Below, piece by piece: positions 14,201 through 17,200 of a stretch of DNA of 64,000 bases. The stretch is from Escherichia coli (GTDB lineage Bacteria > Pseudomonadota > Gammaproteobacteria > Enterobacterales > Enterobacteriaceae): the NCBI RefSeq assembly GCF_044324785.1, contig NZ_CP172128.1. The stretch is one strand, 5' to 3'. How positions within the stretch are numbered: the first letter of the stretch is position 1; each line of letters starts with the position of its first letter. Position numbers: made by a program.

Positions 14201-17200
14201 CAATGGAAGCTTTTCCACAGCGGCATTGCTGTAACAGGGTTCTTTTACTGCAAAGGGGGATGTCCGTACAAATGTCGTCACCTGCCGGCAATACTGACGC
14301 TCCCCACGTAGTTTCTCTGCGGCCCGCTCTGCATACTGAACAACAGCCTGGTGCATGGCATCTTTGTCTGTGATTCGTTCACCAAAACTGCGACTACAGA
14401 CAATCTGCTGTTTTGCCGGTGGTGCTTCTTCCAGGGATATGCAGGACTCGCCGTTGAGTTCGCGTACCGTACGCTCAAGAATGACGCTGAAGTTTTTCCG
14501 GATGAATGCCGTGTTAGCCTGCGCCAGCTGCAGTGCTGTGTTAATACCCAGCGCATTCAGCTTTTCCGTCAGTCTGCGTCCTACTCCCCAGACCTCACCA
14601 ACTGGCTGCAGTCCCAGTAGCTTCAAGATCCGATTACGGTTTTCTGCCGTCAGCGCGACCACACCGGAAAACTGTGGCCATTGCTTTGTTGCCCACTGTG
14701 CACTTTTAGCCAGCGTTTTTGTAGGCGCAATGCCCACCCCCATGGTGAGTCCTGTCCAGCTCTTTACCTGTTCCCTGAGCTGATGACCAAAAAACTCCGG
14801 AGAGATGCAATGATTTATCCCCCGCAAATCAATAAACATTTCATCAATTGAGTAGGGCTCAACTGCGGGAGAAAGCGACTCCAGAACAGCCATGACCCGT
14901 TGGCTCATGCTGTGGTACAGCGCATAATTGCTGGAAAATACATGTATTTTCTTCTCCAGGCGCATCTGTCTCACCTGAAACCAGGGCTGCCCCATTCTGA
15001 TGCCAAGGGCTTTTGCCTCCGGGCTGCGCGCGATCACACAGCCATCGTTATTGCTGAGTACGATGACCGGTTCGTTGCGAAGGTCCGGGCGGAAAACTTT
15101 TTCACATGAGGCGTAGAAACTGTTGATATCAGCCAGTGCAAACATCAGCGTAACTCCCGCGTCCTGTGTATCACGTGAGTGACAACACCAAAAATACAGA
15201 TGTTTTCCGGATACAGTGTGCGGAACTCCGGGCTGTCTGAAACCGGCTCCAGTGCCGGGCGTGGGCGCAACAGCAGTCGTTTGACGGTGAACTCACCGTC
15301 GATCTCAGCGATAACGATGTCCCCGTGTTGTGGTTTTTCGGCCCTGTCCACTACCAGCAGATCACCATTCTGCACGCCAGCCTGGTTCATCGATTCACCG
15401 CTGGCGCGCAGAAAGAAGGTGGCTGCAGGTCTGCTGATGCAATAGCTGTTCAGATCCAGTTCCTGCTCAGCATAATCAGTGGCAGGCGAAGGAAAACCGG
15501 CCTGGCAACGATCGGCAAACAACGGTCGCACGTAACTGTCATCGCCTGAAGGGTCAGCCGGACGGTGATAAACGGTACTCATGCTGCAGGCAGCCAGCTG
15601 TCGTCCTGCCAGATTTCTTCCAGCAGAGACAGGATACGTTCTTTATCCTTGTCGTTGCGGGCTCCTGTGACAGATACAGACGGGGCGCTGCCCTGGTCTA
15701 TACGCAGCCAGATTTCCGGGTAGTGTGGTTTCAGACGTTGTTCGATTTCATTCTGTAGCGCCTGAAGTGTGCCTGATTTGAGGTTTTTGTGCTCTGGCGG
15801 TCGAAAAGAATTTCAATGCGGATCATGTTCTCATCTCCCTTTTCTATTGCTGTATGTATATACAGTATTCTAATAACTGAATCCACACACAGTCAAATGT
15901 CATTATTGTGACTAAAAAACGCTCAATTCTCTGAGGGTGTGGCTGTATGCCTGCTGTGGAGTGCTGTGTCCAGCTTATCCACAGCATTTTGTGCACGGTT
16001 CTGTGGACAAAATACCTGGTTACCCAGGCCGTGCCGGCACGTTAACCGGGCTGCATCCGATGCAAGTATGTCGCTGTCGCCGGCCTCCTCACCCGGTCAC
16101 GTTTCGTCGTTCCTCCTCCACGCGCTGCGGCTTCGGGGCCGCACCTGCATTCGTATGCGGTCGCCCGGTAACAGGTGCGGCACGGCCTGATGGAGGCCGC
16201 ATGTGAGAGGAGAATTCCCATGCCAAACTGGTGCTCGAATCGTATGTATTTTTCTGGTGAACCGGCACAGATCGCTGAGATTAAACGACTGGCCAGTGGT
16301 GCAGTCACACCGCTTTATCGCCGCGCCACAAATGAAGGTATTCAGCTGTTTCTGGCCGGAAGTGCCGGACTTCTGCAGACCACTGAAGATGTGCGGTTTG
16401 AACCATGCCCCGGACTGACGGCTGCCGGACGTGGTGTTGTATCTCCGGAGAATATAGCGTTCACCCGCTGGCTGACACACCTGCAGAACGGTGTACTGCT
16501 GGATGAGCAAAACTGCCTGATGCTGCATGAACTCTGGCTGCAGAGCGGTACTGGACAGCGTCGCTGGGAAGGATTACCGGACGATGTCAGGGATACCATC
16601 ACCGCACTTTTCACCGCAAAAAGAGGTGACTGGTGTGGCTTCTGGAGTAACGAGGATGTATCGGTGTGGTGGAACCGTCTGTGTGACAATGTACTGCCGG
16701 AAAAAACCATGCCGTTTGACCTGCTGACGGTTCTGCCGACCCGCCTTGATGTTGAAGTGAATGGCTTCAACGGTGGTGTTCTGAACGGTGTTCCTTCTGC
16801 ATATCACTGGTATACAGAACTGTATGGTGTGAAGTGGCCTTGTGGGTATGACCTGAATATCAGCAGTCAGGGGGAAAACTTCATTCAGGTGGATTTCGAC
16901 ACGCCGTGGTGTCAGCCGGAAAGCGACGTTATTGCAGCATTAAGCCGCCGTTTCAGCTGCACGCTGGAGCACTGGTATGCCGAACAGGGCTGTGATTTCT
17001 GTGGCTGGCAGTTGTATGAGCGCGGAGAGCTTGTTGATGTGCTGTGGGGGGAACTGGAATGGTCTTCCCCGACAGATGACGATGAGCTGCCGGAAGTCAC
17101 CGGACCTGCGTGGATAGTCGACAATGTGGCGCATTATGGCGGATGAAGTATGACGGAGACGGGCGGGAAACCGCCCGTTTCTTTTCCGACAAAGGATGTC

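What the first reader, a model, noticed from the sequence alone, without database searches (positions are those of the whole stretch)
15579..15830. impC reading frame broken by an apparent 1-nt deletion in an A5 homopolymer
impA and impB are intact and preceded by a LexA box, but the small first gene of the operon terminates after 31 codons. The remaining conserved ImpC sequence continues in the next frame, and the span is one nucleotide short of a multiple of three. A homopolymer indel can be a sequencing error, a fixed inactivating mutation, or a slip-prone tract.
Basis: partly seen in the sequence, partly recalled or inferred. Interest (0 to 1): 0.4.

Follow-up and report, generated by a model that had tools for sequence, protein, structure and literature searches.

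The report
Frameshifted impC in plasmid SOS-mutagenesis operon
The first small gene (impC, a DinI-like regulator) of a well-known plasmid SOS mutagenesis operon is truncated by a real, inherited one-base deletion in a run of A's: an ordinary rare null allele, neither an assembly error nor a new mechanism.

Summary
On the minus strand, impC starts at 15826 and reads 14 native codons. It then hits an A5 run (15784-15788), goes out of frame and stops after 31 codons (TGA 15733-15731). The other 68 ImpC codons continue in the -1 frame to a TGA at 15581-15579 that overlaps the impA ATG. Adding one A gives exactly the 82-aa ImpC of R64/TP110-type plasmids.

Among about 2,486 PLSDB plasmids carrying this segment, 2,312 have A6, 11 have A5 and 1 has A7. 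About five of the A5 records are noisy assemblies full of other homopolymer errors. The window's allele is real. The same A5 sits on one IncK2-type haplotype, marked by a linked SNP (16821 T), in at least 8 separate assemblies; five close A6 relatives carry 16821 G. A5 also occurs on other backbones in clean assemblies, and a separate nonsense allele (Q25*) exists.

The tract is not measurably more indel-prone than a control A6 tract in impB (p = 0.2). Nothing supports programmed frameshifting or phase variation. impA, impB, the promoter and both LexA boxes are intact. The likely consequences, both inferred, are loss of the DinI-like modulator and weaker translational coupling into impA. This is a known system and of low interest.

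The parts
15872..15896 (-). Sigma-70-like promoter of the imp operon. -35 TTGACT is at 15896-15891 and -10 TAGAAT at 15872-15867 (the scan's site ends at 15867).
   Evidence: Consensus scan, 10 of 12 matches, 18-nt spacer. Both hexamers overlap the LexA boxes.
15875..15894 (+). Distal, weaker LexA box AACTGAATCCACACACAGTC, 48 nt upstream of the impC ATG.
   Evidence: Read directly. It is identical to the -48 impCAB site of pTF2 listed in Table 1 of PMC12211044 (heterology index 13.49).
15848..15867 (-). Proximal, strong LexA box TACTGTATATACATACAGCA, 21 nt upstream of the impC ATG.
   Evidence: Read directly. It is identical to the -21 impCAB site of pTF2 (heterology index 1.60; PMC12211044).
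15835..15839 (-). Shine-Dalgarno-like GGGAG of impC.
   Evidence: Read directly (aaaaGGGAGatgagaacATG).
15731..15826 (-). Truncated impC reading frame: 14 native codons, 17 out-of-frame codons and TGA. The product is 31 aa, MIRIEILFDRQSTKTSNQAHFRRYRMKSNNV.
   Evidence: The exact 31-aa product was found as a called gene in 32 blocks of public assemblies.
15784..15788 (-). A5 run (T5 on the + strand). It is A6 in 99.5% of related plasmids. The missing A shifts the frame at codon 15 (AAC Asn becomes ACC Thr).
   Evidence: alignment to A6 relatives; counts A6 2312, A5 11, A7 1.
15579..15785 (-). Remaining 68 ImpC codons (N15-A82) plus TGA, now in the -1 frame. No ATG, GTG or TTG start in that frame. 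The stop overlaps the impA ATG (ATGA).
   Evidence: No ORF in this frame is listed. The 44- and 55-aa 'DinI-like' CDS in RefSeq start at ATC codons.
15145..15582 (-). impA: UmuD-like S24 self-cleaving subunit, 145 aa, intact.
   Evidence: Peptidase_S24, 3e-24. In pLH10-b-1-A, whose DNA here is identical to the window's, the product carries the same accession as in R64 and the A6 relatives (WP_000109071.1).
13874..15145 (-). impB: Y-family (UmuC-like) DNA polymerase, 423 aa, intact. Its start overlaps the impA stop (TGATG).
   Evidence: IMS 4e-40, IMS_C, DUF4113, IMS_HHH. In pLH10-b-1-A, whose DNA here is identical to the window's, the product carries the same accession as in the A6 relative pE16-3 (WP_000457496.1).
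16821..16821 (+). Linked marker SNP inside the neighbouring DUF1281 gene. It is T in every IncK2-type A5 assembly examined and G in five close A6 relatives.

Best explanation
This is the known LexA-regulated impC-impA-impB (UmuDC-like) SOS mutagenesis operon of I-complex plasmids, here on an IncK2-type backbone. It carries a genuine, vertically inherited 1-nt deletion (A6 to A5) at codons 13-15 of impC.

Shown: the deletion ends ImpC translation after 31 codons, of which only the first 14 are native. There is no canonical start codon from which the remaining 68 codons could be read, so this is an impC null allele. The promoter, both LexA boxes, impA and impB are unchanged.

Inferred: the plasmid no longer makes its DinI-like protein. 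In E. coli, DinI binds RecA filaments and tempers UmuD cleavage. Ribosomes now stop 146 nt before the impA ATG. That ATG has no Shine-Dalgarno sequence of its own and normally overlaps the impC stop (ATGA), so ImpA, and through the TGATG overlap ImpB, are probably translated less. The allele persists in a successful poultry-associated plasmid lineage, so it is at most mildly deleterious. That would fit redundancy with chromosomal dinI and the reported toxicity of impCAB overexpression.
For: Frame break and anatomy. Identity of the restored product with ImpC and DinI: (PDB 1GHH DinI, E = 7e-6).

Reality of the allele:
- The window is a different assembly from pLH10-b-1-A (8 SNPs, small indels and an extra IS2), yet both have A5.
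- A5 together with the linked SNP 16821T is found in the window, pLH10-b-1-A (Switzerland), pF1022-2 (France) and draft contigs L024, L027, L033 and L036. Five close A6 relatives have 16821G.
- Across the imp operon the window differs from the A6 plasmid pE16-3 by this one base only: 0 SNPs and no other homopolymer indel.
- A5 also occurs in otherwise indel-free assemblies on other backbones: FDAARGOS_1300; L026, L030 (a SPAdes-style contig name) and L041.
- A second, substitution-type null allele (CAG to TAG, Q25*) exists in 5 PLSDB records and 3 sampled contigs. This shows impC nulls are tolerated.

Regulation: the LexA boxes are identical to those of pTF2, where ImpC and ImpA rose 21- and 9-fold in a constitutive-SOS strain (PMC12211044). 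Overexpression of impCAB causes a severe growth defect (PMC10286972).
Against: No reads are available for the window itself, so an error in this particular record cannot be formally excluded. About 5 of the 11 A5 records in PLSDB are clearly error-ridden assemblies, so A5 at this site can also be an artefact. The sequencing technologies of the supporting assemblies are not known from these tools. Both functional consequences, loss of a DinI-like activity and reduced ImpA/ImpB through uncoupling, are inferences. The predicted RNA structure around the impA start is not significant (z = -1.5). ImpC's biochemical role is not established in the papers I could read. impC shows strong purifying selection in I-complex plasmids (dN/dS about 0.001), which argues that it is not dispensable in general.
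Confidence: 0.85

Rival explanations
1. Assembly or base-calling error: the real plasmid has A6 and an intact impC.
For: Homopolymer undercalls are common. Five A5 records (pSCU-483-1, p80_40A, pK38, pOT-ESBL-0589, p32-4_B) and A65EC p2 carry many other 1-nt homopolymer deletions or frameshifted genes. 99.5% of related plasmids have A6.
Against: The window has no other indel relative to pE16-3 across the operon. The same A5 co-occurs with the linked SNP 16821T in at least 8 separately deposited assemblies from different countries, including draft contigs, and in none of five A6 relatives. Independent errors would not track a SNP haplotype.
Confidence: 0.05
2. Recoding: a -1 ribosomal slip of tRNA-Lys on A_AAA_A, or transcriptional slippage on the A-run, restores full-length ImpC. 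The A5 allele would then be a leaky or programmed frameshift gene rather than a null.
For: A -1 shift of the P-site tRNA-Lys from AAA (15787-15785) to AAA (15788-15786) re-pairs perfectly. The next codon would then be AAC (Asn), giving exactly wild-type ImpC (read). E. coli tRNA-Lys is known to be shift-prone on A-runs (own knowledge, e.g. dnaX A AAA AAG).
Against: A5 does not form an in-phase X XXY YYZ heptamer. There is no upstream SD-like element, and no stable structure lies 5-9 nt downstream; the only 8-bp hairpin starts about 17 nt away and the fold is not significant. The shifted arrangement is not conserved, since 2,312 records are in frame against 11 shifted. Five A residues are too few for appreciable RNA-polymerase slippage (own knowledge). 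A trace of slippage product cannot be excluded.
Confidence: 0.04
3. Phase-variable contingency tract: the A-run toggles between A6 (ON) and A5 or A7 (OFF) at high frequency to switch ImpC.
For: A5 has arisen on several backbones (IncK2-type, IncI1-type, IncF pSTEC2018_607-c) and A7 is seen once.
Against: The frequency of the -1 allele (11 against 2,312) is not significantly above that of a control A6 tract in impB (1 against 909; Fisher p = 0.20; p = 0.68 using only the clean records). Within the 16821T haplotype every assembly examined is A5, with no reversion. Six bases is short for a contingency tract (own knowledge).
Confidence: 0.04
4. Positively selected loss: impC nulls are favoured in some lineages. 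Uncoupling could lower the costly ImpA/ImpB output, or removing a DinI-like brake could raise SOS mutagenesis.
For: There are two different null mutations (A5 frameshift, Q25* nonsense), and A5 is found on several backbones, with impA and impB usually intact. The A5 haplotype is widespread. The PGAP 55-aa remnant protein is recorded on 272 contigs, and 7 of 10 sampled loci were A5. impCAB overexpression is toxic.
Against: Null alleles total under 1% of PLSDB records. The rate is not above a control tract. impC is otherwise under strong purifying selection. Hitch-hiking on a successful plasmid clone explains the spread equally well. In pTF2, deleting impC had no significant effect on SOS expression or conjugation.
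Confidence: 0.15

Closest known systems
ImpC of the impCAB operon of IncI1 plasmids TP110/R64 (UniProt IMPC_ECOLX; RefSeq WP_000618110.1)
   Same: Same locus, same LexA boxes, and the same ATGA overlap with impA. With one A restored the 82-aa sequence is an exact match to the sequence named Protein ImpC.
   Different: Here the frame is broken at codon 15. Only 14 native residues are made. RefSeq annotates a 44- or 55-aa 'DinI-like family protein' from an ATC start instead of a pseudogene.
E. coli DinI (PDB 1GHH; Pfam PF06183)
   Same: Restored ImpC matches the DinI profile over residues 19-79 (E = 8e-18) and matches DinI itself over residues 3-79 (E = 7e-6). Both are LexA-regulated.
   Different: DinI is a chromosomal single gene, whereas ImpC is the first cistron of a polymerase operon. 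ImpC's RecA-modulating activity is assumed from homology and was not shown in the papers I could access.
umuDC, mucAB and samAB SOS mutagenesis operons
   Same: A LexA-repressed operon with an S24 self-cleaving subunit and a Y-family polymerase, and overlapping stop and start codons.
   Different: Those operons have no upstream DinI-like third gene (PMC7092418 and PMC12211044).
Programmed -1 frameshift sites on A-runs (dnaX A AAA AAG, IS911)
   Same: An A-run decoded by tRNA-Lys, where a -1 slip would restore the product.
   Different: No in-phase heptamer, no stimulatory elements, and the arrangement is not conserved.

Membership tests
ImpC / DinI-like family (PF06183) | Protein of about 80 aa matching the DinI profile | tested here: met
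ImpC / DinI-like family (PF06183) | A single uninterrupted ORF encoding the domain | tested here: not met
   The frame shifts at codon 15 and stops at codon 32. The rest lies in the -1 frame with no ATG, GTG or TTG start. It is therefore filed as a pseudogene or null allele of impC, not as a functional member.
ImpC / DinI-like family (PF06183) | RecA-filament binding and modulation of UmuD-type cleavage | not testable with these tools
   This needs biochemistry. It is inferred from homology only.
impCAB / umuDC-like SOS mutagenesis operon | LexA box(es) overlapping the promoter | tested here: met
   TACTGTATATACATACAGCA (15848-15867) and AACTGAATCCACACACAGTC (15875-15894) are identical to the pTF2 sites with heterology indices 1.60 and 13.49. 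The promoter-like hexamers overlap them.
impCAB / umuDC-like SOS mutagenesis operon | UmuD-like S24 peptidase followed by a Y-family polymerase, both intact | tested here: met
   impA matches Peptidase_S24 at 3e-24. impB matches IMS at 4e-40, IMS_C at 9e-25, DUF4113 at 3e-20 and IMS_HHH at 1e-5. The protein accessions are identical to those in A6 plasmids.
impCAB / umuDC-like SOS mutagenesis operon | UV protection and induced mutagenesis phenotype | not testable with these tools
   This needs UV survival and Rif-resistance mutagenesis assays.
Programmed -1 ribosomal frameshift gene | In-phase slippery heptamer X XXY YYZ | tested here: not met
   The zero-frame codons are ACA AAA ACC, so only a single-tRNA A_AAA_A slip is possible.
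Programmed -1 ribosomal frameshift gene | Stimulatory element: an upstream SD-like sequence or a downstream structure 5-9 nt away | tested here: not met
   There is no SD-like sequence upstream. The nearest stable hairpin is about 17 nt downstream, and the fold z-score is -1.49.
Programmed -1 ribosomal frameshift gene | The shifted arrangement is conserved among homologues | tested here: not met
   2,312 records are in frame (A6) against 11 shifted (A5).
Phase-variable homopolymer (contingency) locus | Tract length varies within a clone at a rate above that of comparable tracts | tested here: not met
   A5 is invariant within the 16821T haplotype. The comparison with the impB A6 control tract gives Fisher p = 0.20.

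The most novel reading that the evidence does not exclude
Loss of the DinI-like first cistron is adaptive rather than neutral. Independent impC null mutations (the A6-to-A5 frameshift on several backbones, and Q25* nonsense) that leave impA and impB intact would then be a recurrent way for I-complex plasmids to retune their error-prone polymerase. They would do so either by uncoupling translation and lowering the toxic ImpA/ImpB output, or by removing a brake on RecA-mediated ImpA activation. The A-run would provide the commonest route.
Probability: 0.12. Interest if true: 0.4.

Novelty: already known. Interest (0 to 1): 0.15.

Why it matters
The significance is mainly practical.

1. **Annotation.** This allele is a real pseudogene, but RefSeq annotates it as a 44- or 55-aa 'DinI-like family protein' starting at a non-standard ATC codon. 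Gene-content surveys of I-complex plasmids will therefore count impC as present in a lineage that cannot make it.

2. **Natural experiment.** The allele gives a naturally occurring near-isogenic pair: the window's plasmid or pLH10-b-1-A against pE16-3, which are identical across the operon apart from this base. Such a pair could be used to test what ImpC does for the plasmid polymerase. The papers I could access leave that question open.

3. **Triage of homopolymer frameshifts.** At the same site, about half of the database instances are sequencing noise and the rest are genuine alleles. A linked-SNP haplotype test can tell the two apart without reads.

Tried and rejected
- The original ImpC papers (Lodwick et al. 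1990, PMC332119; Runyen-Janecky et al. 1999, PMC96475) are not held. Whether ImpC is required for UV protection or mutagenesis therefore could not be checked. I do not rely on my uncertain memory of them.
- Literature searches for impC frameshifts and for the strain and plasmid names found nothing relevant.
- The source record of the window was not identified. It is not pLH10-b-1-A, pF1022-2 (3 SNPs in the operon), A65EC p2 or pOkiPb01685_1. The closest draft is L027, GCA_965255025.1, with 2 mismatches in 6.1 kb.
- The hotspot test used a control A6 tract in impB. The difference is not significant, so 'hypermutable tract' was dropped.
- RNA folding for a frameshift stimulator or for sequestration of the impA start gave a non-significant fold and was not used as evidence.
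- A second DinI/ImpC copy in the window that could compensate was looked for and not found.
- The 44- and 55-aa PGAP proteins were considered as possible real N-terminally truncated products. They were rejected because they start at ATC with no SD and lack the first beta-strand region. The same 55-aa call is also made on the nonsense allele.
- One query failed for being 1 nt too long.
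Full report
**1. What is in the sequence**

The imp operon lies on the minus strand. impB is at 13874-15145 (423 aa) and impA at 15145-15582 (145 aa). Upstream of impA, an ATG at 15826-15824 is preceded by GGGAG (15839-15835).

Translation from this ATG gives MIRIEILFDRQSTK, then TSNQAHFRRYRMKSNNV, then TGA at 15733-15731. The frame offset by -1 reads NLKSGTLQALQNEIEQRLKPHYPEIWLRIDQGSAPSVSVTGARNDKDKERILSLLEEIWQDDSWLPAA. It ends at TGA 15581-15579, inside the ATGA that holds the impA start.

The switch point is the run AAAAA at 15788-15784 (T5 on the + strand). From ATG to this stop is 248 nt, one short of 83 codons. tblastn of intact ImpC against the window gives two pieces in two frames.

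Adding one A (ACA AAA AAC) gives an 82-aa protein. It matches Pfam DinI at 8e-18 and E. coli DinI (PDB 1GHH) at 7e-6. Its exact sequence is held in the protein collection under the name 'Protein ImpC, IMPC_ECOLX' and is seen on at least 1,000 contigs.

**2. The rest of the operon is intact**

- impA is a Peptidase_S24 protein. impB has all four domains of the ImpB/MucB/SamB Y-family polymerases.
- In pLH10-b-1-A, whose imp DNA is identical to the window's, both products have the same RefSeq accessions as in A6 plasmids.
- A promoter-like site (TTGACT, 18 nt, TAGAAT; 15896-15867) overlaps two LexA boxes. These are TACTGTATATACATACAGCA (15848-15867) and AACTGAATCCACACACAGTC (15875-15894).
- Both boxes are identical to the -21 and -48 sites reported for impCAB of plasmid pTF2, with heterology indices 1.60 and 13.49. 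In that study ImpC and ImpA rose 21- and 9-fold, and ImpB 2-fold, in a constitutive-SOS strain (PMC12211044).

**3. How common is A5?**

A 401-nt query around the site hits 2,516 PLSDB plasmids, mostly conjugative Escherichia, Salmonella and Shigella plasmids. Exact 81- to 83-nt queries that differ only in tract length give the counts below.

| Allele | Exact-match PLSDB records |
|---|---|
| A6 | 2,312 |
| A5 | 11 |
| A7 | 1 |

In complete E. coli genomes, 7 records match the A5 query at 100% out of 1,742 (8 fall in the 99%-or-higher band). A6 is thus the norm and A5 makes up about 0.5% of records.

**4. Error or real?**

I aligned the operon (-300 to +2000) of each A5 record to A6 references.

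- Five records (pSCU-483-1, p80_40A, pK38, pOT-ESBL-0589, p32-4_B) carry many other 1-nt homopolymer deletions in impA and impB. A65EC p2 has many genes flagged as frameshifted. In these, A5 is most simply noise.
- The window, pLH10-b-1-A and pF1022-2 have no other indel. The window has zero SNPs against the A6 plasmid pE16-3 across the operon.
- The window is not pLH10-b-1-A. Over 31.7 kb they differ by 8 SNPs and a few small indels, and the window has an extra IS2 at 2764-4094.

A 19-kb SNP comparison of the window, pLH10-b-1-A, pF1022-2 and five A6 IncK2-type relatives gave the key result. Position 16821 is T in all three A5 sequences and G in all five A6 sequences.

The exact 31-aa frameshift product is recorded in 32 blocks of public assemblies (NCBI, ENA, Logan). 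The IncK2-context draft contigs among them (L024, L027, L033, L036) have no indel or only two indel columns relative to the window, and all carry 16821T. Independent miscalls would not follow a SNP haplotype. In this lineage A5 is therefore a real mutation passed down by descent.

A5 is also found in otherwise indel-free assemblies on different backbones:

- FDAARGOS_1300;
- L026, L030 (SPAdes-style contig name) and L041;
- the IncF plasmid pSTEC2018_607-c, which also has a 334-bp impA/impB deletion.

The same deletion has therefore arisen more than once.

**5. Is the tract special?**

As a control I used an A6 tract inside impB (14789-14794). Its counts are 909 exact A6 and 1 exact A5. Against 2,312 and 11 for impC, Fisher p = 0.20. 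Using only the clean impC records, p = 0.68. There is no evidence that the tract is more mutable than any six-base homopolymer.

**6. Other null alleles**

RefSeq annotates A5 plasmids with a 44- or 55-aa 'DinI-like family protein' beginning at an ATC codon. The 55-aa sequence is on 272 contigs and the 44-aa sequence on 171.

Of ten sampled loci encoding the 55-aa form, seven are A5. The other three are A6 with CAG changed to TAG at codon 25. That nonsense allele is exact in 5 PLSDB records. impC nulls therefore arise by different mutations and are tolerated, but remain under 1% of records.

**7. Mechanism**

Shown: the A5 allele encodes a 31-aa peptide that keeps only residues 1-14 of ImpC. 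The downstream 68 codons have no ATG, GTG or TTG start in frame.

Inferred from family knowledge: DinI binds RecA filaments and restrains UmuD cleavage, so the plasmid has lost its own modulator of that kind. The host's chromosomal dinI may compensate.

Inferred from the sequence: the 15 nt before the impA ATG (GCTGGCTGCCTGCAGC) contain no GGAG, GAGG or AGGA. The wild-type impC stop overlaps the impA ATG, so impA probably depends on translational coupling. In A5, ribosomes terminate 146 nt upstream, which should lower ImpA and, through the TGATG overlap, ImpB. Because impCAB overexpression causes a severe growth defect (PMC10286972), such a reduction might be neutral or mildly beneficial. None of this was tested.

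**8. Rivals**

- **Programmed or leaky -1 frameshifting.** This is chemically possible: tRNA-Lys re-pairs on A_AAA_A and the product would be wild-type. But there is no in-phase heptamer, no stimulator and no conservation.
- **Phase variation.** This is contradicted by the stability of A5 within the haplotype and by the control tract.
- **Assembly error in this record.** This is contradicted by the haplotype evidence.
- **Positive selection for loss.** This remains possible but is unsupported beyond recurrence. impC otherwise has dN/dS of about 0.001, and deleting impC in pTF2 had no significant effect on SOS expression or conjugation.

**9. Verdict**

This is a known operon carrying a genuine, rare, inherited null allele in its first gene. 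The finding is ordinary. Its main value is as an annotation caveat and as a ready-made natural mutant for asking what ImpC does.

Noticed in passing
L034, L035 and L037 (about 45 nt upstream of the 55-aa gene start at locus position 3001); equivalent to window 15755 (minus strand C): A second, independent impC null allele: A6 is intact but codon 25 is changed from CAG to TAG (Q25*). It is exact in 5 PLSDB records (e.g. NZ_CP023367.1, NZ_CP141082.1). impA and impB are intact in L034.
   Followed up: partly
window 15579-15746; NZ_CP100531.1 locus tag NLZ08_RS24570: RefSeq/PGAP does not flag the broken impC as a pseudogene. It calls a 55-aa (WP_225556493.1) or 44-aa (WP_229997119.1) 'DinI-like family protein' starting at ATC codons. 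These remnant proteins are recorded on 272 and 171 contigs.
   Followed up: yes
window 2764-4094: A 1,331-bp insertion absent from the otherwise near-identical pLH10-b-1-A. Its two overlapping ORFs (136 and 301 aa) look like IS2 InsC/InsD. The IS2 identification is from memory of the sequence, not from a database search.
   Followed up: partly
window 18136-18971: In this patch (the DUF1380/hypothetical-gene region) the window and pLH10-b-1-A share about a dozen SNP alleles with the distant pPK8275 and differ from pF1022-2 and pE16-3. This suggests a short recombination tract within the A5 sub-lineage.
   Followed up: no
window 15914-15919 (A6 on the + strand; T6 in imp orientation, 93 nt upstream of the impC ATG): This intergenic homopolymer, just upstream of the -35 hexamer, varies between T5, T6 and T7 among plasmid lineages. 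T5 also appears in clean assemblies such as FDAARGOS_1300, so part of the variation is real.
   Followed up: no
L006 (NZ_CP075700.1 pSTEC2018_607-c), about 655 nt after the impC ATG: This IncF plasmid combines the A5 impC allele with a 334-bp deletion that removes the impA 3' end and the impB 5' end, and has a group II intron nearby. It is an example of further decay of the operon.
   Followed up: partly
window 18436-18442: A small cluster of indels and SNPs separates the window from pLH10-b-1-A at the junction of the 139-aa DUF1380 ORF and the 63-aa ORF. It changes the DUF1380 protein from 139 aa to 140 aa and changes its accession.
   Followed up: no
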